Source: Nocardioidaceae bacterium (GTDB lineage Bacteria > Actinomycetota > Actinomycetes > Propionibacteriales > Nocardioidaceae). From it: a stretch of 40,000 bases of DNA. The translations under genes and the position numbers were made by a program. Location: contig JAXLSN010000009.1 in the NCBI GenBank assembly GCA_046330595.1, forward strand, positions 271,789 to 311,788, written 5' to 3'. A model generated the notes under the pieces. It had not been told where the DNA came from and made no database searches. It worked only from the letters and a program-made list of their open reading frames with translations. Positions 18,462-32,655 of the stretch are shown here, in pieces (position 1 is the stretch's first letter; every line of letters starts with the position of its first letter).

Positions 18462-18474
18462 CCGGCGTCGCCGC

Positions 18475-19797: not shown

Positions 19798-19945
19798 GGT
19801 GGCCTCCCCGTGCCGCGGCGGAGCCGCCCGGGCGGCGACCCCGCCGTGACTGCTTCTCCATGGTCGGTCGGACCTGGGCCCAGCGTGCTAGGACGATGAT
19901 CACCACGGGGGTGTTCCGTGCGGCACAGCCGCAGGATGACCGGCG

Positions 19946-20683: not shown

Positions 20684-20776
20684 GACGACGCCACGAGGAG
20701 CGCCGTTGGGCCCGGCTCGTCGGCGGGCCTAGACTCTGGCGCGCCCACCCAGGCGTGACCCGAGGAGCGCCCTGCG

Positions 20777-20854
20777 ATGACCGACGTCGACACGTTCATG
20801 ACCGATGTCGTCTCCGCCGAGATCCTCATCGCCGACCAGCCGGTGTCGCGATGA
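20777..20854 (+). CDS. Possible 25-codon upstream ORF translationally coupled to the kinase gene
   Basis: ATG 20777 has a GAGGAG SD (20762-20767) 9 nt upstream. It encodes MTDVDTFMTDVVSAEILIADQPVSR. 23 of 25 third positions are G/C. The stop TGA 20852-20854 overlaps the kinase ATG 20851 (ATGA), and the kinase has no SD of its own. Confidence 0.3.
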   Translation: MTDVDTFMTDVVSAEILIADQPVSR

Positions 20855-22293
20855 CACCGATCCTGGCCATCGACCAAGGGACGTCCGGCACCAAGGCGAT
20901 CGTCGTCGACGAGGCGGGCACGGTGCTCTCGCTGGCCGAGGTGGGCCTGCAGCCGCGCTACCTCGACGGAGGTGGCGTCGAGCAGGACCCCCAGGCGATG
21001 CTCGACTCCGTCCTCGTGGCGGGGCGTCGCGCTGTCGCCGAGGCCGGCGTACGCATCGGTGCCGTGGCGCTGGCCAACCAGGGCGAGACCGTGCTCGCCT
21101 GGGACCGAGCGACCGGGGCGCCGCTCTCGCCGGCGATCGTGTGGCAGGACAGCCGCGCCGAGACGGTGTGCGCCGCGCGACGTGACCGCGCCGACCGGGT
21201 GGCGGCACTGACCGGGCTCGTCCTCGACCCTTACTTCTCCGCCCCCAAGATGCGGTGGCTGCGGGACAACGTCACCACCGAGGGCGTCGTCACCACCAGC
21301 GACACGTGGCTGGTGCACCGGCTCTGCGGTGCCTTCGTCACCGACACCTCGACCGCCAGTCGCTCGCTGATCCTCGACCTCGACCGGCGGGTGTGGTCCG
21401 ACGAGCTCGTCGACGTCTTCGGCCTCGGCGCCGAGGCGCTGCCAGACGTGGTCGCCAGCGACGAGGTCGTCGGCGAGACCGACCTGTTCGGCGACACCGT
21501 TCCGGTGGCGGGACTGATCGTCGACCAGCAGGCCGCCCTGCTCGCCGAAGGCTGCCTCGAGGCCGGGACCGCCAAGTGCACGTTCGGGACCGGCGCGTTC
21601 CTGCTCGCTCAGCTGGGCCCGCGCCCCGCCCGGTCCTCGGCCGGTCTCACGACCTCGGTGGCCTGGGACCTGCGTGGCGGTGCCGACTACTGCGTCGATG
21701 GCCAGGTCTACACCGCGGCCTCCGCCATCCGCTGGGCCATCGATCTGGGGCTGGTCTCTGCCGCCGACCAGCTCGACCCGGTCGCCGAGACCGTCGACTC
21801 CAGTGACGGCGTGCTGTGCGTCCCCGCCCTGGCCGGGCTCGCCGCACCGTGGTGGGACGCCCAGGCGACCGCGGCGCTGACCGGGATGACGCTCAGCTCC
21901 GGGCGTGGCCACCTGGTGCGCGCGCTGCTCGAGGGGATCGCCGCCCAGGTGGCGTCGTTGACCGCGCTGGTCGGCGACGACCTCGGTACGCCGCTCACGC
22001 GGCTGCGCGTCGACGGCGGGCTGACGCGCTCGCAGGTGCTGATGCAGGCCCAGGCCGATCTCGCCCAGCTGCCCGTGGACGTCTATCCCTCGGCCCATGC
22101 CACACCGCTCGGAGCGGCCGCCTGTGCCCGGCTGGCCCTCGACCCAGGCCTGGGCATCGCCGAGGCCGTCGGGCCCTGGACGCCGGAGCGGACCTTCGAG
22201 CCCACCTGGAGCGCCGACCGCGCCGCCGACCAGCTGAGCCGGTGGCGGGCCGCCGCCGCGTCAGCCTCACTGAGTCAAGGCGGTCGGGCGTGA
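20851..22293 (+). CDS. glpK: FGGY-family carbohydrate kinase, glycerol-kinase-like
   Basis: MTPILAIDQGTSGTKAIVVD.., NQGETVLAWDRATGAPLSPAIVWQDSRA, LDPYFSAPKMRWL, CTFGTGAFLL: a GlpK-subfamily pattern. The listed 20755 start adds a non-homologous Arg-rich leader. Confidence 0.8.
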   Translation: MTPILAIDQGTSGTKAIVVDEAGTVLSLAEVGLQPRYLDGGGVEQDPQAMLDSVLVAGRRAVAEAGVRIGAVALANQGETVLAWDRATGAPLSPAIVWQDSRAETVCAARRDRADRVAALTGLVLDPYFSAPKMRWLRDNVTTEGVVTTSDTWLVHRLCGAFVTDTSTASRSLILDLDRRVWSDELVDVFGLGAEALPDVVASDEVVGETDLFGDTVPVAGLIVDQQAALLAEGCLEAGTAKCTFGTGAFLLAQLGPRPARSSAGLTTSVAWDLRGGADYCVDGQVYTAASAIRWAIDLGLVSAADQLDPVAETVDSSDGVLCVPALAGLAAPWWDAQATAALTGMTLSSGRGHLVRALLEGIAAQVASLTALVGDDLGTPLTRLRVDGGLTRSQVLMQAQADLAQLPVDVYPSAHATPLGAAACARLALDPGLGIAEAVGPWTPERTFEPTWSADRAADQLSRWRAAAASASLSQGGRA

Positions 22294-23699
22294 CGGGCTC
22301 CCCCGTCCTCGACGGTGAGGTCGACGTCGCGGTGATCGGGGCGGGCGTCGTCGGCTCCGCCATCGCCCGCGACCTCGCCGGCACCCACCTGTCCGTCGCG
22401 GTGCTCGAGGCCCGCAACGACGTCGGCGACGGCACCAGCAAGGCCAACACCGGCATCCTGCACACCGGCTTCGACGCCAAGCCCGGCACCCTCGAGTCCC
22501 GCTTGGTGGCGCGCGGCTATGACCTGCTCCGCGACTATGCCGACGCGACCGGGATCCCGATCGAGACCACCGGGGCCCTGCTGGTCGCGTGGACCCAGGA
22601 GGAGCTCGACACCCTGCCGTCCCTGCGCGACAAGGCGGTCGCCAACGGCTATGACCGCTGCGAGCTGGTCGACGCCGCGTCCGTCTATGCCCGGGTCCCT
22701 GCGCTCGCACCGGGGGCCCTCCGCGGGCTGACGGTCCCCGACGAGTCGATCACCTGCACCTGGACGGCCACGCTCGCCCTCGCCACCGACGCCGTACGGC
22801 GCGGGGCGCGCCTGCTGCGCGACCACCCGGTGACCGGTGCGAGCCCCGACCCACGGGGCGGCTGGCTGCTCGAGACCCCCCACGGGCTGGTCCGGGCCCG
22901 CTGGGTCGTCAACGCCGCCGGGCTCGGCGCCGACCAGGTGGACCGCCTCACCGGACACGACCGCTTCACCGTCACCCCGCGACGCGGCGAGCTGTTCGTC
23001 TTCGACAAGCTGGCCCGACCGATGGTGCCCGTCATCGTGCTGCCGGTGCCGTCCAAGGTCGGCAAGGGTGTGCTGGTCAGCCCCACGATCTATGGCAACG
23101 TCATGCTCGGCCCGACCGCCGAGGACCTCGACGACAAGACGATGACCGCGACCTCGGAGGAGGGCTTCGCGTTCCTGCTCGACAAGGGCGCCCGACTGAT
23201 GCCGACCCTGCTGGAGGAGGAGGTGACGGCGACCTACGCGGGGCTGCGTGCGGCCATCGACGCCGACGACTACCTCATCGACCTCGACGCCGCGCGACGC
23301 TACGTCCTCGTCGGCGGCATCCGGTCCACCGGGCTCACGGCCAGCATGGCGATCGCCCAGCACGTCGTCGGCCTGCTCGCCTCGGGCAGCGACCTCGACC
23401 TCTCCCCGCGAACGGAGCTGCCCGACCCGCCCCGGATGCCCAACCTGGGCGAGGCCGGACTGCGCCCCTACCAGGACCCCGAGCTGATCGCGGCCGACCC
23501 CGACTATGGCCGCGTCGTCTGCTTCTGTGAGCGCGTCACCGCCGGTGAGCTGCGCGACGCCCTCGCGTCGACGATCCCGCCCGCCGACCTCGATGGCCTG
23601 CGCCGTCGCACCCGCGTCATGAACGGCCGCTGCCAGGGCTTCTTCTGTGGGGCCAACACCCGGGTGCTCCTCGAGGCCCGTGGGGAGGAGGCGCGATGA
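22290..23699 (+). CDS. FAD-dependent oxidoreductase, glycerol-3-phosphate dehydrogenase/oxidase-like, with a C-terminal BFD-like [2Fe-2S] domain
   Basis: GTG 22290 overlaps the kinase stop (GTGA). Dinucleotide fold VAVIGAGVVGSAIARDL. C-terminal CFCERVTAGEL..NGRCQGFFC four-Cys motif. The listed ORF 21816..23699 over-extends into the kinase gene. Confidence 0.8.
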   Translation: MTGSPVLDGEVDVAVIGAGVVGSAIARDLAGTHLSVAVLEARNDVGDGTSKANTGILHTGFDAKPGTLESRLVARGYDLLRDYADATGIPIETTGALLVAWTQEELDTLPSLRDKAVANGYDRCELVDAASVYARVPALAPGALRGLTVPDESITCTWTATLALATDAVRRGARLLRDHPVTGASPDPRGGWLLETPHGLVRARWVVNAAGLGADQVDRLTGHDRFTVTPRRGELFVFDKLARPMVPVIVLPVPSKVGKGVLVSPTIYGNVMLGPTAEDLDDKTMTATSEEGFAFLLDKGARLMPTLLEEEVTATYAGLRAAIDADDYLIDLDAARRYVLVGGIRSTGLTASMAIAQHVVGLLASGSDLDLSPRTELPDPPRMPNLGEAGLRPYQDPELIAADPDYGRVVCFCERVTAGELRDALASTIPPADLDGLRRRTRVMNGRCQGFFCGANTRVLLEARGEEAR

Positions 23700-24955
23700 C
23701 CACCCCCACCCGTTCCGCCGGGCTGGCCGTCGAGCACGTCCCCGTCGTCATCGTCGGCGGTGGCCCCGCTGGGCTCACGGCCGCGGCGGCCCTCGCCGAG
23801 ACCGGCGTACTGCTGCTCGAGCGGGAGGCCGAGACCGGCGGCATCCCGCGCCACAGCGACCACCCCGGCTTCGGGCTGCGCGACCTGCACCGCGCGGTGT
23901 CCGGGCCGGCCTATGCCCGGCGGCTCACGGCGCTGGCGCGCGATGCGGGCGCGCGCCTGGAGACCGAGGCACAGGTCACCGGCTGGGACGGCCCGCGCCG
24001 CCTCCTGGTCACCTCCCCACGTGGCCGGCGGATCGTCGAGGCCGAGGCCGTCGTCCTCGCGACCGGTGCCCGCGAGCGGCCCCGACCGGCTCGTCGGATC
24101 CCGGGCGACCGTCCCGACGGCATCTATACGACCGGGCAGCTGCAGCAGCTGGTCCACGTGCACCAGCTCCCCGTGGGTTCGCGCGCCGTGGTCGTCGGTG
24201 CCGAGCTGGTCAGCTGGTCGGCCGTGATGACCCTGCGCGAGGCGGGCTGCCGCACCGTCGCGATGACGACGCCGTACGACCGGGCGGAGTCCTATGCCGC
24301 CGTCCGCGCCCTGGGTCGGACCGCCCTGCGCGTCCCGGTGTGGACCCGCACCCGGGTCGTGAGCATCCACGGTCGGCAGCGGGTCGAGTCGGTGGTGGTC
24401 GAGGACGTCGACACCGGCCAGCGCCGCACCATCCCCTGCGACACCGTCGTCACGACCGGCGACTGGATCCCCGACCACGAGCTGGCCCGACTGGCCTCGC
24501 TCGACCTCGACCCCGGCACTCTCGGGCCGGTCGTCGACGCCGGCCTGCGCACGAGTGCGCCCGGGGTGTTCGCGATCGGCAACCTGGTCCACCCCGTCGA
24601 CACCGCCGACGCCGCCGCGCTCGACGGACGGCACGTCGCCGACGTCGTACGCCGCTGCGTCACCGCGGCAGGCCGTGACGCACAGTCCCGCCTCGAGGTC
24701 AGGGCGGGCGACGGCTTCCGGTGGGTGAGCCCGCAGCGGATCGACCCAGGCGCGGATCCCTCCCGTGGCAAGGTCCTGCTGTGGCCGGACCGCTTCGTCC
24801 GGCTGCCCCGGGTGCGGGTCATCCAGGACGGCTCGGTGCTGGCCGAACGCCGGCTCCCCTGGCCCGCCGCACCCGGCCGGGTCTTCCGGGTCCCCGCGTC
24901 ACTGCTCGCCGCCGCCTCCCCCGCCGGCGGCCCCGTCACCCTCACCCTCGCCTGA
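23696..24955 (+). CDS. NAD(P)/FAD-dependent oxidoreductase (pyridine-nucleotide-disulfide-oxidoreductase fold) with an uncharacterised C-terminal extension
   Basis: ATGA overlap with the upstream stop. VVIVGGGPAGLTAAAAL, a second fold AVVVGAELVSWSA, and GVFAIGNLVHP. About 100 C-terminal residues have no motif I recognise. Confidence 0.8.
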   Translation: MTTPTRSAGLAVEHVPVVIVGGGPAGLTAAAALAETGVLLLEREAETGGIPRHSDHPGFGLRDLHRAVSGPAYARRLTALARDAGARLETEAQVTGWDGPRRLLVTSPRGRRIVEAEAVVLATGARERPRPARRIPGDRPDGIYTTGQLQQLVHVHQLPVGSRAVVVGAELVSWSAVMTLREAGCRTVAMTTPYDRAESYAAVRALGRTALRVPVWTRTRVVSIHGRQRVESVVVEDVDTGQRRTIPCDTVVTTGDWIPDHELARLASLDLDPGTLGPVVDAGLRTSAPGVFAIGNLVHPVDTADAAALDGRHVADVVRRCVTAAGRDAQSRLEVRAGDGFRWVSPQRIDPGADPSRGKVLLWPDRFVRLPRVRVIQDGSVLAERRLPWPAAPGRVFRVPASLLAAASPAGGPVTLTLA

Positions 24956-25071: not shown

Positions 25072-25140
25072 CGACCCGGCAGAACTTCTGCCGGGTCGAC
25101 ACTGAGTGCGCGCTCACCCGGCAGAACTTCTGCCGGGTCG
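25072..25140. repeat. Two more copies of the 27-nt palindromic (REP-like) element
   Basis: CGACCCGGCAGAACTTCTGCCGGGTCG at 25072-25098; CACCCGGCAGAACTTCTGCCGGGTCG at 25115-25140. Spacing is 43 bp. It ends 3 nt before the large-subunit stop (25143). The core is identical to the 13.6-kb copies. Confidence 0.9.
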
Positions 25141-25142
25141 GC

Positions 25143-26663
25143 TCACAGGTCGTTGCCGGCGTAGGACTGGTTGAAGCTCTTGTTGGTGAGGGGGAAGTCC
25201 GGGACGATCGTGTCCTTCAGCGCCACGGGCAGGGCGGGCCAGTTGAAGAACGACGGGTCGACGACCTTGCAGCGCGTCACGAGCCCGTCGCGGATCTCGA
25301 CGCGGTGCACCAGCGTCCCGCGCCAGGCCTCCACGACACCGAGGCCCGCCCCCGAGCCCGCGACGGGGAGCTCGACCGGGCTGCCGACCGTGGCACCGCC
25401 CGCCGCCGAGGCGGTGACCCCCCGGCCCATGACAACGCCGGTGAGCTCGGCGATCAGATCCGCCGACTGCTGGGCCTCGCGGGCGCGCACCAGGAAGCGC
25501 GCCATGACGTCGCCGGTCGTCTCCATGACCGGTTGGAACTCCGGGCCGAGGTCGTGGAACGGGTGGTCGCGACGGGCATCGACGTCGACACCGCTGGCGC
25601 GGGCGACATAGCCGAGCGTTCCCATGGCGTGGGCTTGCTCGTGGGGCAGCACCGACGTGGCGGTGAGCCGGTCGACCACGACGTGGTTGCCGAGCGCGAT
25701 AGCGACGATCTCGGCGAGCTCAGCAGCGACCGACGCGACGAGCTCGAGGTCAGGCAACTGACGCAGCTGCGTCGAGCCGATGCCGATGGCCCCGCGCAGC
25801 AGCCGGTGGCCGGTGACCGCCCGGTGGTGTCGCAACAGCCGTTCGCGGAGCGCCTGGGCATGGGCGTTGACGATGCCATAGCCGACGTCGTTGACGATCG
25901 CCCCCAGGTCGGCCACGTGGTTGTGGAGCCGCTCCATCTCCAAGAGCAGGGCCCGCAGCGCCGTGTCGACATCTCCCACCGGCACGCCGAGAGCCTGCTC
26001 CACCGCCATGACATAGGCGAGTGAGTGGCCGACCGCGGTGTCGCCGCTGATCCGCTCGGCGAGCTCGATCCCGGCCTCGGGAGCACGGCCCTCGAAGAGC
26101 TTCTCGACCCCACGGTGGACGAACCACAGCCGGGCCTTCATCCGGACGATCGTCTCCCCGACGACAGAGAACCGGAAGTGGCCGGGCTCGATCAGCCCCG
26201 CGTGCACCGGCCCGACCGGGATCTCATAGACACCGTCGCCACCGACCTCGACGAACGGGAACGAGCCCGTGTCGGCCTCGAACGTCGGGTCGGGGGTCGC
26301 GTCACGTCGCATCGGGTAGTAGCCGCTGGGCCAGTGGCCATGGCGGACCAGGCGCCGGGCCAGCGGGTGGCCGAGCGGGGTCACGCCATAGAGGTCGCGG
26401 ACCTCGCGCTCGAACCGGCCGGCCGCATAGGAGAGGTCGGCCATCGTCGGCACACCGTCGGCGTCGTCGGGCACGGTGATGGCCAGCTCGTGGGGCTGCT
26501 CCCCTGGAACAAGGAACGTGTGGACGATCCGGACGCCGCCGCCGTCGTGGTGGCCTGCGGCCAGCGCGAGCCGGGCACCCCGGTCGAGCAGGGCACCGGC
26601 CTCGGCCCGCAGCGTCGCCGCGGTGACCTCGCGAGGCTCGGGGAGCGGCGTCGGGGCGCTCAC
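25143..26663 (-). CDS. Fused NuoC-NuoD / HycE-like large subunit of a group-4-hydrogenase-related complex, lacking the NiFe cysteine ligands
   Basis: 506 aa. NuoC-like N-terminal part (AAGRFEREVRDLYGVTPLGHP). Large-subunit core VGPVHAGLIEPGHFRF..FVHRGVEKL. The L1 position reads ERISGDTAVGHS (SGDT at 26048..26037) where CGxC is expected. The C-terminus reads KSFNQSYAGNDL where DPCxxCxxR is expected. ATGA overlap with the upstream gene. Confidence 0.9.
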   Translation of the reverse strand: MSAPTPLPEPREVTAATLRAEAGALLDRGARLALAAGHHDGGGVRIVHTFLVPGEQPHELAITVPDDADGVPTMADLSYAAGRFEREVRDLYGVTPLGHPLARRLVRHGHWPSGYYPMRRDATPDPTFEADTGSFPFVEVGGDGVYEIPVGPVHAGLIEPGHFRFSVVGETIVRMKARLWFVHRGVEKLFEGRAPEAGIELAERISGDTAVGHSLAYVMAVEQALGVPVGDVDTALRALLLEMERLHNHVADLGAIVNDVGYGIVNAHAQALRERLLRHHRAVTGHRLLRGAIGIGSTQLRQLPDLELVASVAAELAEIVAIALGNHVVVDRLTATSVLPHEQAHAMGTLGYVARASGVDVDARRDHPFHDLGPEFQPVMETTGDVMARFLVRAREAQQSADLIAELTGVVMGRGVTASAAGGATVGSPVELPVAGSGAGLGVVEAWRGTLVHRVEIRDGLVTRCKVVDPSFFNWPALPVALKDTIVPDFPLTNKSFNQSYAGNDL

Positions 26664-28102
26664 GCGGCACCTCCGAGTACGGCGACCGCGGCCGCCAGCA
26701 CGTCGTGGAGCGGCCAGACCAACGCCCCGAGGAGGGCCACCACCCCGAGCGCCACCCCGGTCACGAGCCGCTGGCCCGGCGTCGAAGGGTCCGGACCCGC
26801 GACCGCCTCGACCAGGGTCGAGTGGCCATGCCTCGTCAGCGTCATGGACAGCGTGTGACGGGCGAGGCCGGCGAACACGACCAGCAGGAGGGCCGCCGTG
26901 GCGCCGGCGACGAGCGGCAGGCCGCGCTGGAAGCCGGCGATGACGATGGCGGCCTCGGTCAGGAACAGCCCGAAGGGCGGGAAGCCCAGCAGGGCGCTCG
27001 TCCCGGCGAGCCAGGGGCGGGCGAGACTCGGGTGGGTGTCGAGCAAGGAGTGCACCCGACCGATCTCGTGGGTGCCGGTCGCTCGGAGGAGCCGTCCCGA
27101 CACGACGAAGAGACTCGCCTTGGCCAGCCCGTGGCCCAGGATGTGGAGCAGCACGGCCGCGGTCGCGAGCGGACCTCCGATGGCGGCGCCGATGGCGACG
27201 ATCCCCATGTGCTCGATGCTGGAGTAGGCCAGCAGCCGCTTATAGCTGCGCTGCGTGAGCATCAAGGCGGCGGCCGCGGCCAGCGACAGCAGCCCGGCGA
27301 CGACCAACAGCGTGCGCATCAGGTCGGGGCCGAGCACGTGGTCGCTGATCGCCTTGACCCGCAGGATCCCCGAGAAGGCGACGGACAGCAGCACGCCGGA
27401 CATCAGCCCGGAGACCTGGGCCGGTGCCTGGCTGTGGGCGTCGGGGAGCCAGCTGTGCATCGGGGCGAGCCCGGCCTTGGTGGCCAGACCGAGCGCCGTG
27501 AGCGCCAGCCCGACGCGGGCGGTGTCGACCGCGAGTGCGTTGCTGCTCGACAGCGCCGCCCAGGAGAGGGTGGCGAGGTCACCGCTGGCGGCATAGACGA
27601 GCACGAGCCCGAGGAAGGCGATGGCGACGCCGACCGAGCCGAGGACGACGTACTTCCAGGCGGCCTCGAGCGCGGCACGGCCGCCGCCATAGGCGACCAG
27701 GAAGGCGGTGGCGATCGTCGTCGCCTCGACGGCGACCCACAAGACGCCGAGGTTGTCGGCGAGTACGGCGAGCGTCATGGCCGCCAGGAAGAGGCTCATC
27801 AGCGCGGAGAACCGGCCATCTACGCGGTCGTTGGTCGCACCCCAGGTGGCGACGACCGCCACGGCGCCGACCACCGTCACCATGAACGTCGTGAGCGCGT
27901 CGACACGCAGCAGCCCGCCCGCGGCGGTGACCACGTCGGCGGATGTCGCCGGCAGCATCGCCATCGTGGCGACGCCGGCGGCGAGGACGACGGCGGCGGC
28001 CGCCGCCGGGACGTGACCGACCCAGGGATCGTGGCGACGCAGCAGCGACACCACCGCCAGCACGACGGGGATGACGAGCACGGCCCAGACCAGGAGCGTC
28101 AT
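26660..28102 (-). CDS. NuoN/NuoM-type antiporter-like membrane subunit (HyfF/HycQ-like)
   Basis: Start MTLLVWAVLV at 28102 (TGATG junction with the upstream stop). KAGLAPMHSWLPDAHSQAP and KRLLAYSSIEHMG motifs. The listed 675-aa ORF over-extends the N-terminus in a region occupied by the HyfE-like gene. Confidence 0.85.
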   Translation of the reverse strand: MTLLVWAVLVIPVVLAVVSLLRRHDPWVGHVPAAAAAVVLAAGVATMAMLPATSADVVTAAGGLLRVDALTTFMVTVVGAVAVVATWGATNDRVDGRFSALMSLFLAAMTLAVLADNLGVLWVAVEATTIATAFLVAYGGGRAALEAAWKYVVLGSVGVAIAFLGLVLVYAASGDLATLSWAALSSSNALAVDTARVGLALTALGLATKAGLAPMHSWLPDAHSQAPAQVSGLMSGVLLSVAFSGILRVKAISDHVLGPDLMRTLLVVAGLLSLAAAAALMLTQRSYKRLLAYSSIEHMGIVAIGAAIGGPLATAAVLLHILGHGLAKASLFVVSGRLLRATGTHEIGRVHSLLDTHPSLARPWLAGTSALLGFPPFGLFLTEAAIVIAGFQRGLPLVAGATAALLLVVFAGLARHTLSMTLTRHGHSTLVEAVAGPDPSTPGQRLVTGVALGVVALLGALVWPLHDVLAAAVAVLGGAA

Positions 28103-28761
28103 CAGTCCCTCAGCTCCGCCAGGTCGCTGAGGTCGGTCGTCCCGAACGTGGCCCGGATCCGCAGCGCCAAGATCACCAGGATCGCGACCACGAGCAGGAC
28201 GTCCGCCAGGACGCCGAGCTCCACCACGGCCGGCAGACCGCCGGCGGTGAGCAGCGCCGTCGCGCTGATGCCGTTGTCGACCGTCACGAACCCGACCACC
28301 TGACCCATCGCCTGCCGACGCGTGGCCAGCACCAGGAAGCCGATCAGCACGACGGCGATCCCGATCGGTACGGCGGTGCCGAGCTCGCTCCCCTGGGTCG
28401 ACTCGATGGGCCGCGTCACCAGGTAGGCGACCGTCGTGAGCAGCGCGGCCAGCAGCATGCCCGAGGTCGGGTTGACCAGGGGCGCGGTCTCCTGGTCGAC
28501 CTGGGTCCGGTCGGCGCCCCACCGGAGCAGGGCCGGGATGACGATCGCCTTGACGACGGTCAGGGTGAGTCCGACCAGCAACGGTTCGAGGCCACCCTCG
28601 TCGCTGGCGATGACCAGGGCGATACCGCCCAGGCAGGCACCCTGGATCGCCAGCAGCAGCACCGACCCCGACAGGGAGCGACGCCACAGCAGCAGCACGG
28701 CCGTGAGCAGGAGACCGCCGGTGGCGGCGGCCAGCAGCTGGGCCAGGAACGGCGAGGTCAC
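28102..28761 (-). CDS. Hydrogenase-4 component E-like / NuoK-related membrane subunit (HyfE/HycP-like)
   Basis: 219-aa polytopic ORF. GTG 28761 is preceded by a GAGGAGGAG SD. It sits between the HycD-like and HyfF-like genes, as in hyf/hyc-type clusters. Confidence 0.75.
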   Translation of the reverse strand: MTSPFLAQLLAAATGGLLLTAVLLLWRRSLSGSVLLLAIQGACLGGIALVIASDEGGLEPLLVGLTLTVVKAIVIPALLRWGADRTQVDQETAPLVNPTSGMLLAALLTTVAYLVTRPIESTQGSELGTAVPIGIAVVLIGFLVLATRRQAMGQVVGFVTVDNGISATALLTAGGLPAVVELGVLADVLLVVAILVILALRIRATFGTTDLSDLAELRD

Positions 28762-28771
28762 GGTCTCCTCC

Positions 28772-29722
28772 TCACAGGCTCAGGTAGGACGCGGTCACGG
28801 ACAGGAAGGCGAGCACGAACGACGCGGCGAGCAGCTCGGGCACCCGGAAGAGCCGCACCTTGGCGAGGAAGACCTCGGCCACGGCCAGCAGGCCGGCGAC
28901 CACGGTCACCTTGAGCGCGAGGACGGCGGCCCCCACGACGAAGGCACCGGCGCCGGCAGCGGAGGCGACGCCCCATGGTGCGGCGAGGTTGGCCACGAGG
29001 CCGACGAGGCCGACCAGCCGCAGCCAGGACGACAGCTCGACCCAGCCCAGGTCGCGGCCGGACACCTCGAGCACCATCGCCTCGTGCACCATCGTCAGCT
29101 CCAGATGGGTGCTCGGGTTGTCGACCGGCAGCCGCCCGGTCTCGGCGACGACAACGACGGCGAGGGCGACCAGGGCGAGCGCGCTGGCGGGGCTGATGAT
29201 CGTCCCGGGCTCGTCGATGCGAGCCTGCATGATCGTCGAGAGCGTCGAGGCGCCGACCGGGATCGAGAGGGCATAGACGGCGACGAGGACGGTCGGCTCG
29301 ACGAGAGCGGCGATCATCATGTGGCGGCTCGAGCCCATCCCCCCGAACGCCGACCCTGCGTCGAGACCGAGCAGGGCGATGGCCACCGAGCCCAGCAGCA
29401 GGACCGACACGACGACGAACAGGTCGTCGGGGACCGCGGGCAGGCTGACGGTGCTGACCAACGGGAGCAGCGCGATGAGCAGGACGCCGGCAGCCATCAG
29501 GATCGGCGGCATCGCGGCACCGAACAGGGTGCCGGCCGAGGTCAACGGCGCCTTGCGCGCCAGCTTGCGCAGGTCGCGGTAGGGCTGCCAGACACCGGCG
29601 CCGGCGCGCCCCTCCAGCCGGGACCGGATCTGGCGCATCACGCCGATCACGAACGGCGCCATGGCCGTGACGACCAGGGTCTGGAGGGCGATGGCCAGCA
29701 ACGCGGCGGTCGTCGGGTTCAT
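28772..29722 (-). CDS. NuoH/HycD-like membrane subunit
   Basis: Start MNPTTAALLAIALQTLVV at 29722 (ATGA overlap with the upstream stop at 29719). 316 aa. Internal motifs RLEGRAGAGVWQPYRDLRKL and VAETGRLPVDNPSTHLELTM are typical of HycD/NuoH. The listed 577-aa ORF has a spurious Arg/Pro-rich N-terminus. Confidence 0.85.
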   Translation of the reverse strand: MNPTTAALLAIALQTLVVTAMAPFVIGVMRQIRSRLEGRAGAGVWQPYRDLRKLARKAPLTSAGTLFGAAMPPILMAAGVLLIALLPLVSTVSLPAVPDDLFVVVSVLLLGSVAIALLGLDAGSAFGGMGSSRHMMIAALVEPTVLVAVYALSIPVGASTLSTIMQARIDEPGTIISPASALALVALAVVVVAETGRLPVDNPSTHLELTMVHEAMVLEVSGRDLGWVELSSWLRLVGLVGLVANLAAPWGVASAAGAGAFVVGAAVLALKVTVVAGLLAVAEVFLAKVRLFRVPELLAASFVLAFLSVTASYLSL

Positions 29723-31710
29723 CGCAGCACCCCGACGAGGACGGCGACGAGGGCCGCGAAGGAGAACCCGACGTAGCGGTGGATGCTGCCGTTCTGGACC
29801 CGCCGGGCGAGGTCGCCCAGCGCCTTGAGCAGGCGGACGACGGGCCGATAGAGCCGGTTCTCGACGACGTCGCTGACCCGCTGGGTGAACGACATCGCCT
29901 CGATGACATAGGCGGACTCGCCGGCCCGGGTGACCTGGAGGTCGCGGGTCGGTGAGAGCGCGTCGCCGAAGACGCGCACGAGCGGCTCGGCGTACGACGT
30001 CGCGGTGTACTGCATCCGCGGGCTGGTGCGCACGCCGCCGCAGCCCCACCCGAGGTCGACGTGGACCCGGGGGACCCGCATCGCGAGGAGGACGACCACG
30101 ACCACGATCGGCGCGGACAGGACGATGCCGAGCAGCGCGAGGGCGATGGGGTCGAGGGAGGCGTCGACGGTCGGGAGGGACAGCCCGGCGACTCCGTGGG
30201 AGGCCAGCGCTCCGGGGATGATGCGGTCGACGACGCCGGCGGTGGCGCCGGGGGCGACGCCCAGGCCGATGACCGCGGCCGCCATCGCGAGCAGCGCCAG
30301 TCGCATCGATGCCGGCCCCTCGTGGGCGAGCTGGGCGCCGACGCTGCGCGGCCGGGCGAGTGCGGCGATCCCGAACGCCTTGGTGAAGGTGAGCAGCGCC
30401 AGCCCGGCGGTGAGCGCCACGACGCCCATCACCGCCGGCAGCAGCGCCGTGGTGAGCCGGTCGGTGCGAGCGTCGGCGTGGATGAGCGACTGGAGCAGCA
30501 CCCACTCGGCGATGAACCCGCCGGTGACGGGCAGCGCGGCCGCGCCGAGGGCGCCGACGCCGAAGGCGATCGTGGTGACCGGCATCTGCCGCGCCAGCCC
30601 GCCGAGCCGGTCGAGGTCACGCTCACCGGTGGCGTGGAGGATCGAGCCGGCCGCGAGGAACAGCACCGCCTTGAACGCCGCGTGACTGATCGTGAGCAAC
30701 AGCGCCGCCGACATCGCGGTCGCGGCGACGCCGCCCGCGGTGTCGCGGGTCAGCTGGGCGAGACCCACCGCGGCCAGGATCAGCCCGACGTTCTCGGTCG
30801 TGGAGTAGGCCAGCAGCCGCTTGAGGTCGGAGGCCACGGCGGCGTGGAGGATGCCATAGACGGCGCTCGGGAGGGCCAGCGCGAGCAGGAGGAGCGCCCA
30901 CCAGGTGGGGCCGTCGGGCAGCAGCGTGGTGGTGGTGAGCACGATGCCGAAGACGCCCATCTTGACCATCACGGCGCTCATCAGCGCGGACACGTGGGAG
31001 GGCGCCTCGGGGTGGGCCCGAGGGAGCCACACATGCAGCGGGACGACCCCGGCCTTGGCGCCGAAGCCCAGCACCAGCAACACGAAGGCGACGCTGGCTC
31101 CGGTGCCGCTGGCGGGCGCCTCGGCCATCGCCGCGAACGACGTGTCGCCGGCCCGCTCGGTGAGGATCCCGAGTCCGGCCGCGACGAACAGGAAGCTGAG
31201 GTGGGTCATGACGGCATACCAGAGCCCGGCGCGGCGCACCGTGGGCCGGAGCCGGTGCTCGGCGAGCACCAGGACGGTGGACCCGACGGCCATCACCTCC
31301 CAGGCGAGCAGGAACGTGATCGCGTCGGCCGCCACCGGGACCAGCTGGAGCCCGAGCACGAACGCGGCGTACGCCGACCAGGCGGTGCACGACGCCGCCG
31401 CCCCGTGGGCATAGCCGATGCCATAGACCGACGCGACGGTGGCGACGACGCCGGCGAGCAGGGTGAACAGCCCGCCCAACGGCGTGCCGGCCACGCCCAG
31501 GGCGAGCCCGGGCAGGGCGGTGTCGACGCGGAGTGCGTCACCAGCACCGGTCAGGGCTACGGCGCCGGTGACGCACCCCGCGACCCCCAGGCCCGCCGTG
31601 ACGAGACCGGCCGCGAGGTTGCGGCGCCGGTCTCCTGCCAGCACGGCGGCGAGGACTGCGAGGACAGCGAGGGCGAGCTGGGCCCACAGGGCCCCCTGGA
31701 ACGTGGTCAT
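29719..31710 (-). CDS. NuoL-type antiporter-like membrane subunit (HyfB/HycC-like)
   Basis: Start MTTFQGALWAQLAL at 31710 (ATGA overlap with the NuoB-like stop at 31707). KAGVVPLHVWLPRAHPEAPSHVSALMS and KRLLAYSTTENVG. About 663 aa with a long C-terminal extension. Confidence 0.85.
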   Translation of the reverse strand: MTTFQGALWAQLALAVLAVLAAVLAGDRRRNLAAGLVTAGLGVAGCVTGAVALTGAGDALRVDTALPGLALGVAGTPLGGLFTLLAGVVATVASVYGIGYAHGAAASCTAWSAYAAFVLGLQLVPVAADAITFLLAWEVMAVGSTVLVLAEHRLRPTVRRAGLWYAVMTHLSFLFVAAGLGILTERAGDTSFAAMAEAPASGTGASVAFVLLVLGFGAKAGVVPLHVWLPRAHPEAPSHVSALMSAVMVKMGVFGIVLTTTTLLPDGPTWWALLLLALALPSAVYGILHAAVASDLKRLLAYSTTENVGLILAAVGLAQLTRDTAGGVAATAMSAALLLTISHAAFKAVLFLAAGSILHATGERDLDRLGGLARQMPVTTIAFGVGALGAAALPVTGGFIAEWVLLQSLIHADARTDRLTTALLPAVMGVVALTAGLALLTFTKAFGIAALARPRSVGAQLAHEGPASMRLALLAMAAAVIGLGVAPGATAGVVDRIIPGALASHGVAGLSLPTVDASLDPIALALLGIVLSAPIVVVVVLLAMRVPRVHVDLGWGCGGVRTSPRMQYTATSYAEPLVRVFGDALSPTRDLQVTRAGESAYVIEAMSFTQRVSDVVENRLYRPVVRLLKALGDLARRVQNGSIHRYVGFSFAALVAVLVGVLR

Positions 31711-32192
31711 CGGCCGGTCACGGTCCTGAGCGCGGCGATGATGGCGTCCGGTTCGGGAGGACAACCGGGCACCCGAAGGTCGACGTCGACGACGTCCTCG
31801 GCAGCGCCACGCACCCCGGTGCCGCCGTGGAAGAGGCCGCAGTCGACGGCACAGTCACCGACCGCGACGACGCGCCGCGGCTGGGGCGTGGCCTCGACGG
31901 TGCGGCGCAGCGGCTCGGCCATGTTGTGGGTGACGACGCCCGTCACGAGCACCACGTCGGCGTGGCGGGGTGAGGCGACGAGGCGGGCGCCGTAGCGCTC
32001 GGCGTCATAGACGGGGCCGAAGCAGGCGCCGACCTCGATCTCGCACCCGTTGCAGGAGCCGGCATCGACGTGGCGGACCTGCACGCTGCCACCGAAGACG
32101 GCCGCGTCGGGCGAGGCGTCGGGGCGGTCGGGCGCGGGGTCCGCCAGGCGTCCGAGCCGCAGGATGCGCCGGGCCAGCCGGCCGGGGTTCAT
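31707..32192 (-). CDS. NuoB / hydrogenase small-subunit-like [4Fe-4S] protein
   Basis: 161 aa. The four cluster cysteines are retained: GSCNGCE, VGDCAVDCG and VPGCPP. ATGA overlap with the ArsR stop. Confidence 0.9.
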   Translation of the reverse strand: MNPGRLARRILRLGRLADPAPDRPDASPDAAVFGGSVQVRHVDAGSCNGCEIEVGACFGPVYDAERYGARLVASPRHADVVLVTGVVTHNMAEPLRRTVEATPQPRRVVAVGDCAVDCGLFHGGTGVRGAAEDVVDVDLRVPGCPPEPDAIIAALRTVTGR

Positions 32193-32536
32193 CGGGCGCC
32201 ACCGGCGGGCGCGGAGGCGGGCTCGTGGCCCTCGTCGGCGAGCTCGCGCAACAGCCGGCGCGCGGCCGCGAGCATCTCGACGACCTCGGCGCTCACCAGG
32301 CTATAGACGACCTGCCCGCCGGTGCGCTGCTGCCGCACGAGGCCGGTACGACGCAGCACGGCGAGGTGCTGGGACAGCCCCGCCTGCTCGACCTCGATGT
32401 GACCGAGCAGCTCGTGCACGGCGTGGGGGCGCTCGCAGAGCAGCTCGAGCACGCGGATGCGGACGGGGTGGCCGAGCGACTTGAAGAGCTCGGCCTTGCG
32501 CTCGTAGATGGGCGCCCCACTCACTGACATTCGCAC
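32189..32536 (-). CDS. ArsR/SmtB-family transcriptional regulator, first gene of the hydrogenase-like operon
   Basis: LFKSLGHPVRIRVLELLCERPHAVHELLGHIEVEQAGLSQHLAVLRRTGLV is a canonical ArsR wHTH. Start at GTG 32536 or ATG 32530. Confidence 0.9.
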   Translation of the reverse strand: MRMSVSGAPIYERKAELFKSLGHPVRIRVLELLCERPHAVHELLGHIEVEQAGLSQHLAVLRRTGLVRQQRTGGQVVYSLVSAEVVEMLAAARRLLRELADEGHEPASAPAGGAR

Positions 32537-32554
32537 TTGCGAAGATTCGCATAT
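32530..32554. promoter_or_regulatory. Candidate ArsR operator: TTCGCA-CT-TGCGAA palindrome plus an extra TTCGCA half-site
   Basis: TTCGCACTTGCGAA at 32530-32543 overlaps the ArsR start codon(s). TTCGCATAT at 32546-32554 repeats the half-site. Confidence 0.35.
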
Positions 32555-32655
32555 CGTTGTTGTCCGGTCAATGTGAGGCCGGTCGTCCTGTCGCTCCCGT
32601 CACATCGCGCGATGACTTGGGTGCGTTCCGCGGCCATCGGCCTAGACTCGACGGC

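What the first reader, a model, noticed from the sequence alone, without database searches (positions are those of the whole stretch)
25146..26048. All four NiFe-ligand cysteine positions are substituted in the large subunit, while the small subunit keeps its 4-Cys cluster
Group 4 large subunits carry an N-terminal R-x-C-G-x-C-x3-H motif and a C-terminal D-P-C-x-x-C-x-x-R/H motif. Here the first site reads E-R-I-S-G-D-T-A-V-G-H (codons AGC GGC GAC ACC at 26048..26037). The extreme C-terminus reads F-N-Q-S-Y-A-G-N-D-L-stop (25175..25146). That is Cys->Ser, Cys->Thr, Cys->Ser and Cys->Gly, with the surrounding scaffold (GPVHAGLIEPGHFRF, HRGVEKL, GHSLAY..AVE) still hydrogenase-like rather than NuoD-like. 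The NuoB-like partner retains GSCNGCE / GDCA / GCPP. The pattern points to an electron-transfer site that is neither NiFe nor an obvious quinone pocket.
Basis: partly seen in the sequence, partly recalled or inferred. Interest (0 to 1): 0.7.

Follow-up and report, generated by a model that had tools for sequence, protein, structure and literature searches.

The report
Hydrogenase-like membrane complex lacking nickel site
This is a six-gene membrane complex that looks like a hydrogen-producing enzyme but has lost all four cysteines that hold the nickel-iron centre; it belongs to a known but functionally unsolved family (Ehr/Hyq, reported also in the tuberculosis bacterium), so it is a further member, not a new kind.

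Summary
The 506-aa NuoC/NuoD-fused large subunit (25143-26663, minus strand) aligns best with E. coli HycE. It reads S206, T209, S500 and G503 where HycE has its four NiFe cysteines. Its NuoB-like partner keeps four cluster cysteines.

This is not decay. In 80 genomic loci at 57-72% identity, S-G-D-T..H and S-Y-A-G-N-D-L-stop are almost invariant while their codons vary. The only cysteine in the large subunit is not conserved.

The gene sits in a strictly syntenic six-gene operon: NuoB-like, HyfB-like, HycD-like, HyfE-like, HyfF-like, large subunit. An ArsR-type regulator gene leads it. Relatives were confirmed at 496 sites in a one-genome-per-species collection, nearly all Actinomycetota among the 80 examined.

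This matches the published Ehr class. The gene order equals M. tuberculosis Rv0081-Rv0087, which has been called EHR. The rhizobial Hyq complex carries the same SGD/SYxG motif at 39% identity.

The classical complex I quinone ligands are absent, and no ferredoxin-type subunit is encoded.

Verdict: a new member of a known kind, mis-annotated as a nickel-dependent hydrogenase. Its function is unresolved. My best guess is redox-linked ion translocation through the single cluster.

The parts
32189..32536 (-). ArsR/SmtB-type HTH regulator (115 aa) and first gene of the operon. Its stop overlaps the start of the NuoB-like gene.
   Evidence: Pfam HTH_5 1.5e-10. NCBIfam ArsR/SmtB metalloregulator 78 bits, above the 55-bit cut-off. 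A homologue lies on the same strand within 250 bp upstream of the NuoB-like gene in 46 of the 80 related loci (layout).
31707..32192 (-). NuoB/HycG/MbhJ-like small subunit (161 aa) with one predicted [4Fe-4S] cluster. The ligands are C47 (32052-32054), C50 (32043-32045), C114 (31851-31853) and C144 (31761-31763).
   Evidence: Pfam Oxidored_q6 3.5e-29. Best solved relatives are MbhJ 7e-34 and HycG 1e-31, with all four Cys aligned. Conservation in related loci is shown.
29719..31764 (-). HyfB/NuoL-like antiporter-type membrane subunit (681 aa).
   Evidence: Pfam Proton_antipo_M 8e-53. NCBIfam 'hydrogenase 4 subunit B' 512 bits, full length but below the 667-bit cut-off.
28772..29722 (-). HycD/NuoH-like membrane anchor (316 aa). 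The ATG at 29722 overlaps the HyfB-like stop.
   Evidence: Pfam NADHdh 4e-26. Start choice. Best solved relative is FHL HycD 2.3e-27, against complex I ND1 3.5e-4.
28102..28761 (-). HyfE/HycP-like small membrane subunit (219 aa).
   Evidence: Weak Pfam Oxidored_q2 (NuoK) hit, 24.6 bits, below the 26.1-bit cut-off. Coding-type GC3 of 0.95. Syntenic in 73 of 80 loci.
26660..28102 (-). HyfF/HycQ/NuoN-like antiporter-type subunit (480 aa). The ATG at 28102 overlaps the HyfE-like stop.
   Evidence: Pfam Proton_antipo_M 2.3e-46 and NCBIfam 'hydrogenase 4 subunit F' 276 bits, below cut-off. The alignment to MbhH shows that the Glu of 'VAVEATT' and the Lys of 'ATKAGLAPMHSWLPDAH' are retained.
25143..26663 (-). 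Large subunit: a NuoC-NuoD fusion, HycE-like, 506 aa, with no NiFe ligands.
   Evidence: Pfam Complex1_30kDa, NiFeSe_Hases and Complex1_49kDa. HycE 8.2e-52. AF2 model pTM 0.85, with Foldseek top hit 7z0s_E at TM 0.77.
26025..26057 (-). Former L1 NiFe motif, now E-R-I-S-G-D-T-A-V-G-H (aa 203-213). Cys1 is Ser206 and Cys2 is Thr209, with an invariant Asp208 between them.
25146..25172 (-). Former L2 NiFe motif, now N-Q-S-Y-A-G-N-D-L at the exact C-terminus (aa 498-506). Cys3 is Ser500 and Cys4 is Gly503. There is no C-terminal extension.
26169..26213 (-). Loop G-P-V-H-A-G-L-I-E-P-G-H-F-R-F (aa 151-165). The same loop is shared with the four-Cys relatives.
   Evidence: H154 and H162 are kept in 80/80 loci and E159 in 77/80. 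The motif is the same in both Cys-less and four-Cys representatives.
25117..25137 (-). GC-rich hairpin 6 nt after the stop codon. It is the probable end of the operon transcript.
   Evidence: RNA fold -27.9 kcal/mol, z = -4.06 against shuffles. It has no T-run, so the simple terminator scan missed it.
32539..32550 (-). Palindrome GCGAATCTTCGC just upstream of the ArsR start. It is a candidate operator.
   Evidence: Sequence. Identical or related TGCGAA/TTCGCA-type AT-rich repeats lie upstream of the regulator in many related loci. Binding was not tested.

Best explanation
This is an Ehr/Hyq-type complex, that is, an 'energy-converting hydrogenase-related' complex. It has six subunits descended from a group 4 (Hyf/Hyc-like) [NiFe]-hydrogenase, and its large subunit can no longer bind a Cys-ligated NiFe centre. 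It is therefore not a standard hydrogenase, and the database name 'nickel-dependent hydrogenase large subunit' is wrong. The stated confidence refers to these points.

Shown here: the four Cys are replaced by Ser, Thr, Ser and Gly, with a gained, invariant Asp between the first two. These residues are under purifying selection. One [4Fe-4S] site is kept in the NuoB-like subunit. The HycD-like anchor, the HyfE-like subunit and two antiporter-like subunits are intact. No ferredoxin-type (HycF/NuoI) subunit is encoded.

Inferred mechanism, which I put at about 35-40%: the single cluster exchanges electrons with a membrane or soluble carrier, most plausibly menaquinone/menaquinol entering the cavity between the HycD-like, NuoB-like and large subunits. 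The remodelled polar pocket (S206, D208, T209, H213, S500, Y501, with E159) handles the coupled protons. The resulting charge change drives, or is driven by, H+/Na+ movement through the HyfB-like and HyfF-like subunits. The partner on the other side of the cluster is not encoded in the operon and remains unknown.
For: Register and substitutions.

Conservation: the 120 closest homologues carry ER[IV]SGDT..H and N[QL]SYAGNDL-stop. The 80 genomic loci show near-invariant residues with varying codons.

No conserved Cys in the large subunit.

The small subunit's 4-Cys site is aligned to MbhJ and HycG and is conserved.

The six-gene order is strict in every complete locus among 80. No other conserved neighbour was found. 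Relatives were confirmed at 496 sites in a one-genome-per-species collection.

No CxxCxxCxxxC motif occurs in any frame of the 40 kb window.

Among 150 representatives clustered at 50% identity, most carry SGD[T/S/N/E] with SY[A/S]G. The 19 proteins that keep at least three of the four Cys (17 keep all four) form one clade. All 5 sampled members of that clade have a 2x[4Fe-4S] gene or domain beside the small subunit.

Literature: Ehr is defined by the loss of the CxxC motifs. M. tuberculosis Rv0081-Rv0087 is called EHR and 'not a functional hydrogenase', and its gene order equals the window's. Hyq has six subunits, HyqG lacks both CxxC motifs, and HyqI keeps 4 Cys. The Rhizobium Hyq-type large subunit is 39% identical and reads SGDS / SYSG.

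Membrane arm: key residues of the antiporter-like subunit are kept, and the HycD-like loop 'ETGRLPVD' is kept.
Against: No electron donor or acceptor is identified. Nothing in the operon or its variable flanks suggests one.

The classical quinone ligands of NuoD (Thermus His38 and Tyr87) align with I158 and G207. The anchor resembles FHL HycD far more than complex I ND1. A quinone site is therefore not indicated by sequence.

In vivo genetics on the Cys-less Hyq complex of Azorhizobium links it to H2 uptake and evolution. If that is correct, 'not a hydrogenase' would be too strong.

The AF2 monomer model has low confidence exactly at the pocket loops (residues 132-175 and 476-506), so no pocket geometry could be examined.

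Orthology with Rv0087 rests on the literature and on gene order. No Mycobacterium sequence could be retrieved.
Confidence: 0.8

Rival explanations
1. It is still an H2-converting enzyme. H2/H+ chemistry would take place at a non-canonical, Cys-free site next to the [4Fe-4S] cluster, with electrons passing to or from quinone, as proposed for the Hyq 'endo-hydrogenase'.
For: The Hyq complex has the same six-subunit composition and the same SGD/SYxG motif. Its deletion alters H2 recycling and H2 evolution in A. caulinodans in vivo. The pocket residues are as strongly conserved as a catalytic site would be.
Against: No known hydrogenase works without a Cys-ligated metal site. The Hyq evidence is genetic and physiological and does not come from purified enzyme. 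The Hyq authors themselves call a NiFe centre 'uncertain, if not unlikely'. The three Cys they found conserved in HyqG are A, T and Q in the window protein, which has no conserved Cys at all. The M. tuberculosis homologue is reported to lack NiFe maturation genes. No hyp or nickel-transport genes lie in the window.
Confidence: 0.1
2. It is a redox-independent, or merely redox-gated, Mrp-like cation/proton antiporter. The peripheral arm and its cluster would be structural or regulatory remnants.
For: There are two antiporter-like subunits and a NuoK/MrpC-like subunit. No electron-input module and no ferredoxin subunit are present. The complex holds only one redox centre.
Against: The cluster ligands and about 15 pocket residues are near-invariant across 57-72% identity. 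That is more constraint than a plug would be expected to need. The whole NuoB/C/D/H module is retained in every locus.
Confidence: 0.2
3. It is a decaying, non-functional remnant of a formate hydrogenlyase-type hydrogenase.
For: All catalytic ligands are lost, and so is the ferredoxin subunit.
Against: All six reading frames are intact and overlap at their start and stop codons. Relatives were confirmed at 496 sites with strict synteny. The replacement residues are invariant while their codons vary.
Confidence: 0.01
4. It is a minimal complex I paralogue with a classical NuoD-type quinone site.
For: Profile libraries place it near NuoD/NuoCD: Pfam Complex1_49kDa 1.4e-25, and NCBIfam NuoD 153 bits, which is below the 360-bit cut-off. 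PGAP names it 'NADH-quinone oxidoreductase subunit C'.
Against: His38 and Tyr87 of Thermus Nqo4 align with I158 and G207. The small subunit has CxxC, not the tandem CC that I recall as typical of complex I NuoB (the CC point is from memory). The best pairwise matches of all tested subunits are FHL and Mbh, not complex I. Homologues of NuoA, I, J and E-G are missing.
Confidence: 0.04

Closest known systems
Ehr complexes (energy-converting hydrogenase-related; Marreiros et al. 2013, as cited in PMC4758237, PMC10284858, PMC4378227 and PMC6349859)
   Same: The large subunit is group-4-like but lacks both CxxC NiFe motifs. It comes with NuoH-like, HyfB-like and HyfE-like membrane subunits in a cluster of about six syntenic genes. 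The function is unknown.
   Different: The published examples read here come from Nitrospira, Sulfobacillus, Margulisbacteria and similar groups. The present clade is actinobacterial, puts the NuoB-like gene first, and is led by an ArsR-type regulator. Some proposed Ehr complexes are coupled to a neighbouring FdhA with NuoE/F-like genes. No such neighbour occurs here.
M. tuberculosis Rv0081-Rv0087 (regulator, two 'oxidoreductases', hycD, hycP, hycQ, hycE)
   Same: The published gene order is identical: regulator, Rv0082, Rv0083, hycD, hycP, hycQ, hycE. [quoted passage not shown] A 56%-identical operon with the same order occurs in another member of Mycobacteriales, on a Rhodococcus plasmid.
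   Different: Direct sequence comparison with Rv0087 could not be made. The hypoxia-linked regulation through Rv0081 is known only for M. tuberculosis.
Hyq 'endo-hydrogenase' of Azorhizobium caulinodans and other diazotrophs (hyqRBCEFGI)
   Same: It has six structural subunits with the same homologies. HyqG lacks both CxxC motifs, and HyqI keeps 4 Cys. The Rhizobium Hyq-type large subunit is 39% identical over 458 aa, reads G-R-T-S-G-D-S-T-V-A-Y and N-C-S-Y-S-G-H-D-L-stop, and ends at the same position. No ferredoxin subunit is present.
   Different: In Hyq the small-subunit gene is last rather than first. The A. caulinodans operon requires NifA, and the Rhizobium cluster examined has a different HTH regulator. 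The three Cys conserved in HyqG (258, 491, 497) are absent here. Hyq has an H2-related phenotype, and none has been tested for this clade.
Four-Cys relatives of Hyf/group 4 type (e.g. P0171, P0174, P0189) and E. coli formate hydrogenlyase HycE/HycG/HycD
   Same: These are the best solved matches for the large, small and anchor subunits. The four-Cys relatives share GP[IV]HAG[IV]IEPGHFRF, the ..CY.C.DR-type C-terminus ending at the same residue, and the gene order hyfB-C-E-F-G.
   Different: They keep CGxC and CYxC, and they encode a 2x[4Fe-4S] ferredoxin-like subunit or domain next to the small subunit. This was seen in 5 of 5 sampled. The window complex has neither.
Respiratory complex I Q-module (NuoB, NuoCD, NuoH)
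   Same: The fold is the same (Foldseek TM 0.70-0.74 to NuoCD). A single terminal [4Fe-4S] cluster sits in the NuoB-like subunit, and antiporter-like pumps are attached.
   Different: The quinone ligands His38 and Tyr87 are absent. The small subunit has CxxC instead of CC. NuoI, NuoA/J and the NADH module are missing.

Membership tests
[NiFe]-hydrogenase, group 4 (catalytically competent) | N-terminal L1 motif RxCGxCxxxH with two Cys ligands | tested here: not met
   It reads R-I-S-G-D-T-A-V-G-H. The alignment to HycE 7z0s_E puts S206 and T209 on the two Cys. This holds in all 80 related loci, where position 206 is Ser in 77 and Thr in 3, and position 209 is Thr in 79 and Ala in 1.
[NiFe]-hydrogenase, group 4 (catalytically competent) | C-terminal L2 motif DPCxxCxxR/H with two Cys ligands | tested here: not met
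   It reads N-Q-S-Y-A-G-N-D-L-stop. S500 and G503 lie on the two Cys of HycE and are invariant in 80/80 loci.
[NiFe]-hydrogenase, group 4 (catalytically competent) | Small subunit with a proximal [4Fe-4S] cluster (4 Cys) | tested here: met
   C47, C50, C114 and C144 align with the MbhJ and HycG ligands and are conserved.
[NiFe]-hydrogenase, group 4 (catalytically competent) | 2x[4Fe-4S] ferredoxin-like subunit (HycF/MbhN/EchF/NuoI type) in the complex | tested here: not met
   No CxxCxxCxxxC motif occurs in any frame of the window. None lies in the operon of the 80 loci. It is present in 5/5 sampled four-Cys relatives. A copy encoded elsewhere in the genome cannot be excluded.
[NiFe]-hydrogenase, group 4 (catalytically competent) | Hyp maturation genes and nickel supply in the genome; Ni in the enzyme | not testable with these tools
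   None lie in the 40 kb window. The rest of the 444 kb contig and of the genome was not available. The literature says M. tuberculosis lacks them.
Complex I NuoD/NuoB quinone module | Quinone-ligand His (Thermus Nqo4 H38) and Tyr (Y87) in the large subunit | tested here: not met
   In the gap-free first alignment block to 2fug_4, the chain position equals the query position minus 120. H38 therefore falls on I158 and Y87 on G207. G207 is invariant.
Complex I NuoD/NuoB quinone module | Presence of NuoI, NuoA, NuoJ and an electron-input module | tested here: not met
   The operon has only six structural genes, and no conserved neighbours were found.
Ehr / Hyq class | Group-4-like large subunit lacking both NiFe Cys motifs | tested here: met
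.
Ehr / Hyq class | NuoB-like small subunit retaining the 4-Cys cluster site | tested here: met
   The same is stated for HyqI.
Ehr / Hyq class | Cluster of about six genes with NuoH-like, HyfB-like, HyfE-like and HyfF-like membrane subunits | tested here: met
   Compare Sulfobacillus and Hyq.
Ehr / Hyq class | Sequence homology to a published member | tested here: met
   It is 39% identical (E = 7e-85) to the Rhizobium Hyq-type large subunit over 458 aa, with the same SGD/SYxG motif. R. leguminosarum is listed among the Hyq carriers.
M. tuberculosis Rv0081-Rv0087 type | Gene order: regulator, NuoB-like, HyfB-like, hycD, hycP, hycQ, hycE | tested here: met
   The window order matches the order in the Mycobrowser-based table of PMC6901956.
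M. tuberculosis Rv0081-Rv0087 type | Direct sequence orthology to Rv0087, and the same SGDT / SYAG motif in Rv0087 | not tested
   No Mycobacterium sequence was obtained. It was not among the best 80 genome loci or among the best 120 hits to the Rhodococcus homologue.

The most novel reading that the evidence does not exclude
The invariant oxygen-rich pocket beside the [4Fe-4S] cluster is a new kind of catalytic site. It comprises Ser206, Asp208, Thr209, Ser500 and Tyr501, with the fixed C-terminal Asn-Asp-Leu carboxylate. It would be either metal-free or would hold a non-Cys-ligated metal. It would carry out H2/H+ chemistry (as the Hyq genetics hints) or another small-molecule redox reaction coupled to ion pumping. 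It would operate across many Actinomycetota and, by the reported homology, in M. tuberculosis.
Probability: 0.08. Interest if true: 0.9.

Novelty: new member of a known kind. Interest (0 to 1): 0.3.

Why it matters
As a discovery it is modest, because the class (Ehr/Hyq) and its defining loss of the NiFe cysteines are already published.

It matters in three practical ways.

(1) Annotation. This protein and its relatives are labelled 'nickel-dependent hydrogenase large subunit', 'formate hydrogenase' or 'Ni,Fe-hydrogenase III large subunit'. They hit Pfam NiFeSe_Hases. Surveys of H2 metabolism in soil and wastewater Actinomycetota will therefore over-count hydrogenases.

(2) The family is large and conserved, and its function is an open question that reaches the hypoxia-linked Rv0081-Rv0087 operon of M. 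tuberculosis.

(3) The analysis gives concrete handles for that question: an invariant SGD[T/S]...SY[A/S]G pocket with a gained Asp, no conserved Cys at all in the actinobacterial large subunit, no ferredoxin subunit in this clade, and culturable carriers for genetics.

Tried and rejected
1. Mis-registration or cysteines elsewhere: rejected. There is one non-conserved Cys in 506 aa.

2. Pseudogene or decay: rejected by conservation and codon variation.

3. Selenocysteine or a recoded stop at the ligand positions: rejected. The codons are AGC, ACC, TCC and GGC.

4. A conserved partner gene that would name the substrate (FdhF, NuoEFG, Hyp, CODH): I clustered all flank ORFs of 80 loci. Nothing outside the six genes and the regulator recurs in more than about 7 loci.

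5. A strict 'Cys-less means ferredoxin-less' rule: rejected as absolute. The Cys-less P0138 has a Fer4 domain fused to its small subunit.

6. Pocket geometry from AF2: not possible. The tool returns no coordinates, and the pocket loops have pLDDT below 50 in the monomer model.

7. Direct retrieval of Rv0087: it failed twice. The cluster look-up gave no Mycobacterium names either.

8. Reading Marreiros 2013, He 2011 and Cook 2014: none is held in the library.

9. A search for a solved structure or biochemical study of an Ehr complex: none was found in the library.

10. The simple terminator and promoter scan found nothing. The hairpin was found by folding instead.
Full report
**1. What is in the sequence**

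The window is 71.7% G+C. The large-subunit protein is identical to an NCBI entry from a Nocardioidaceae metagenome-assembled genome, where it is named 'nickel-dependent hydrogenase large subunit'.

The region 25143-32536 on the minus strand holds seven genes that abut or overlap one another:
- an ArsR/SmtB-type regulator (32189-32536)
- a NuoB-like small subunit (31707-32192)
- a HyfB/NuoL-like subunit (29719-31764)
- a HycD/NuoH-like subunit (28772-29722)
- a HyfE-like subunit (28102-28761)
- a HyfF/NuoN-like subunit (26660-28102)
- a 506-aa NuoC-NuoD fusion (25143-26663)

A stable hairpin follows the last stop codon (-27.9 kcal/mol, z = -4.06).

**2. Check of the observation**

The register does not rest on motif spotting. 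The phmmer alignment to the solved E. coli HycE (7z0s_E, E = 8.2e-52) puts S206 and T209 on the CGIC cysteines, and S500 and G503 on the CYSC cysteines.

The large subunit contains a single cysteine, C465. It is valine in 68 of 80 related loci. Equivalent ligands cannot be hiding elsewhere.

The NuoB-like protein has GSCNGCE, GDCA and GCPP. All four cysteines align with those of MbhJ and HycG.

**3. More than chance**

The 120 closest database homologues (61-100% identity) all read ER[IV]SGDT..H and N[QL]SYAGNDL-stop, apart from one that begins with Gly.

In 80 genomic loci at 57-72% identity:
- S206 is kept in 77/80, G207 and D208 in 80/80, T209 in 79/80, and H213 in 80/80.
- S500, Y501, A502 and G503 are kept in 80/80.
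- N504, D505 and L506 are kept in 78-79.

Synonymous codons vary at every one of these positions. Ser206 is encoded by AGY in 71 loci and TCC in 6, and Gly207 uses all four codons. This is purifying selection on the new residues, not drift after loss of function.

Three of the four replacements (AGC, TCC, GGC) are one base away from TGC.

**4. Surroundings and distribution**

The six structural genes occur in the same order in every complete locus among the 80 fetched. An ArsR-type gene lies directly upstream in 46 of them. In total, 496 matched stretches in a one-genome-per-species collection encode a relative. The 80 examined are nearly all Actinomycetota and include Nocardioides, Streptomyces, Amycolatopsis, Nonomuraea, Arthrobacter, Cryobacterium and Acidimicrobiia.

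Clustering all flank ORFs found no other gene that recurs in more than about 7 loci. The window's own flanks hold ordinary catabolic genes: 2-oxoacid dehydrogenase, glycerol kinase with an FAD-dependent (DAO-family) oxidoreductase that is probably glycerol-3-phosphate dehydrogenase, aldehyde and alcohol dehydrogenases, and an ABC transporter. There are no hyp, nickel-transport or formate dehydrogenase genes.

No CxxCxxCxxxC motif exists in any of the six frames of the window. The complex therefore has no HycF/NuoI-type subunit encoded nearby, and only one predicted iron-sulfur cluster.

**5. Wider family**

A search of 1.84 billion cluster representatives gave 798 proteins at E <= 1e-30. Among the best 150, most carry SGD[T/S/N/E] together with SY[A/S]G and end at the same residue. 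A minority at 37-42% identity keep CGxC and [EN]LCY[AS]CxDR.

In a neighbour-joining tree of 96 full-length sequences, the 19 proteins that keep at least three of the four cysteines (17 keep all four) form one clade (crude method, midpoint root). A few proteins keep only the first cysteine (CGDS..; P0186, P0222, P0236, P0238, P0262).

Both kinds share GP[IV]HAG[ILV]IEPGHFRF. The loop next to the active site was therefore kept when the metal ligands were lost.

Gene neighbourhoods differ:
- All five sampled four-Cys relatives have a 2x[4Fe-4S] gene, or such a domain fused to the small subunit.
- The window clade, a Binatia relative with the same regulator-first order, a one-Cys intermediate and the rhizobial cluster have none.
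- The rule is not absolute. The Cys-less P0138 has a Fer4 domain fused to its small subunit.

**6. Comparison with what is known**

The literature held here defines Ehr complexes as group-4-related complexes whose large subunits lack the NiFe-binding CxxC motifs and whose function is unknown. Examples come from Nitrospira, Sulfobacillus with 'six syntenic genes', and Margulisbacteria and relatives, with a review mention.

[quoted passage not shown] Its published gene order (regulator, two oxidoreductases, hycD, hycP, hycQ, hycE) equals the window's. A Rhodococcus plasmid, also from Mycobacteriales, carries a 56%-identical copy in the same order. I could not obtain Rv0087 itself, so that orthology is inferred.

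Rhizobial, Azospirillum and Burkholderia plasmids carry 38-42% identical homologues. The Rhizobium cluster examined is ordered HTH-hyfB-nuoH-hyfE-hyfF-nuoCD-nuoB. This is the Hyq type. The Rhizobium large subunit reads GRTSGDSTVAY and NCSYSGHDL-stop.

For A. caulinodans Hyq, the authors report that HyqG lacks both CxxC motifs, that HyqI keeps four Cys, and that deletion affects H2 recycling and H2 evolution in vivo. They infer an H2:quinone oxidoreductase while calling a NiFe centre 'uncertain, if not unlikely'. The three Cys they found conserved in HyqG correspond to A, T and Q in the window protein.

**7. Hydrogenase-like or NuoD-like?**

Pairwise evidence favours the hydrogenase side:
- Large subunit: HycE 180 bits, MbhL 124, Aquifex NuoCD 98, Thermus Nqo4 92.
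- Small subunit: MbhJ 120 and HycG 113 bits, against about 83 for complex I NuoB homologues.
- Anchor: HycD 2.3e-27, against ND1 3.5e-4.
- Structure: the AF2 model (pTM 0.85) matches HycE best at TM 0.77 and NuoCD at 0.70-0.74.

Profile libraries are ambivalent. Pfam reports both Complex1_49kDa and NiFeSe_Hases, and the NCBIfam NuoD match is far below its cut-off.

The two classical quinone ligands of Thermus Nqo4, His38 and Tyr87 (established knowledge of complex I), fall on I158 and the invariant G207 in a gap-free alignment block.

**8. How it most likely works**

Shown:
- a conserved polar pocket replaces the NiFe site
- one conserved [4Fe-4S] site remains
- the anchor, the HyfE-like subunit and two antiporter-like subunits are intact, with the Glu and Lys residues kept
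- no ferredoxin subunit is encoded

Inferred: the cluster still carries electrons, because its ligands are conserved as strictly as the pocket. The pocket still handles protons, because the adjacent loop with E159 is unchanged from the four-Cys relatives. Charge changes there are coupled to the antiporter-like subunits, as in Mbh, FHL and complex I.

I put about 35-40% on a quinone-linked, redox-coupled ion translocator with an unidentified second partner. I put about 20% on a redox-gated or redox-independent antiporter, and about 10% on genuine H2 chemistry at a non-canonical site. The remainder is unknown.

Against the quinone idea: the classical ligands are absent, and the anchor is HycD-like.

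**9. Verdict**

Novelty: a new member of a known kind.

Useful by-products are the mis-annotation, the precise conserved motif with a gained Asp, the absence of any conserved Cys in the actinobacterial large subunit, and a list of culturable carriers for experiments.

Noticed in passing
window 32539-32550 (minus strand), and upstream of the ArsR-type gene in L002, L005, L011 and others: A perfect palindrome GCGAATCTTCGC lies directly upstream of the regulator's start, followed by a further GTGCGAA. L005 and L011 carry the identical palindrome within TATGCGAATCTTCGCATGTGCG, and L002 has TATGCGAACATTCGCATGTGCG. More distant loci have other AT-rich TTGC..GCAA-type repeats at the same place. This is a candidate autoregulatory operator.
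   Followed up: partly
window 25117-25137 (minus strand): A 10-bp GC-rich inverted repeat begins 6 nt after the large-subunit stop. It folds at -27.9 kcal/mol (z = -4.06) and has no T-run. It is the likely transcript end of the operon.
   Followed up: yes
window 31839-31841 (Cys118 of the NuoB-like subunit): There is an extra cysteine four residues after the cluster ligand C114 (GDCAVDCG). It is conserved in 56 of 70 related loci and is absent from MbhJ and HycG at that position. Its role is unknown.
   Followed up: partly
window 32557-34110 (+): A 517-aa ORF runs divergently from the operon. It has a clear coding-type codon bias (GC3 0.92) but no Pfam hit even at E = 0.1. It has no counterpart next to the operon in any of the 80 related loci.
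   Followed up: partly
window 18458-19899, both strands: Three long overlapping ORFs lie here: 347 and 440 aa on the plus strand, and 440 aa on the minus strand. None has a Pfam hit. The minus-strand ORF 18475-19797 has the most gene-like codon-position GC pattern (0.76/0.62/0.92).
   Followed up: partly
database names of P0001, P0350, P0359, P0316 and the JGI entries: Cys-less members are variously named 'nickel-dependent hydrogenase large subunit', 'formate hydrogenase', 'hydrogenase large subunit', 'Ni,Fe-hydrogenase III large subunit' or 'NADH-quinone oxidoreductase subunit C'. None of these names fits a protein without NiFe or quinone ligands.
   Followed up: yes
P0186, P0222, P0236, P0238, P0262 (representatives); L088: These are apparent intermediates that keep only the first of the four cysteines (CGDS...). 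They already have the Asp and the SY/AYxG C-terminus. P0186 sits in a Hyq-order cluster without a ferredoxin gene.
   Followed up: partly
L091 8143-8835 (next to P0138): A Cys-less large subunit (ERVSGDETVAN / NLSYAGNDL) is paired with a 230-aa small subunit that has a Fer4 2x[4Fe-4S] domain fused to the NuoB-like domain. Loss of the NiFe ligands and loss of the ferredoxin module are therefore separable events.
   Followed up: partly
window 20755-24955 (+): An FGGY-family carbohydrate (probably glycerol) kinase, a DAO-type FAD-dependent oxidoreductase (probably glycerol-3-phosphate dehydrogenase) with a C-terminal BFD-like [2Fe-2S] domain, and a pyridine-nucleotide-disulphide oxidoreductase converge on the 3' end of the operon. 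The listed ORFs 20755-22293 and 21816-23699 overlap by about 480 bp, so the second probably starts later (its DAO domain begins at residue 170).
   Followed up: no
L081 (Rhodococcus sp. ZPP plasmid pRZP3) 10636-19275: On this linear plasmid the six-gene operon is flanked by an IS110 transposase and three integrase/recombinase genes. This suggests the module can move horizontally.
   Followed up: no
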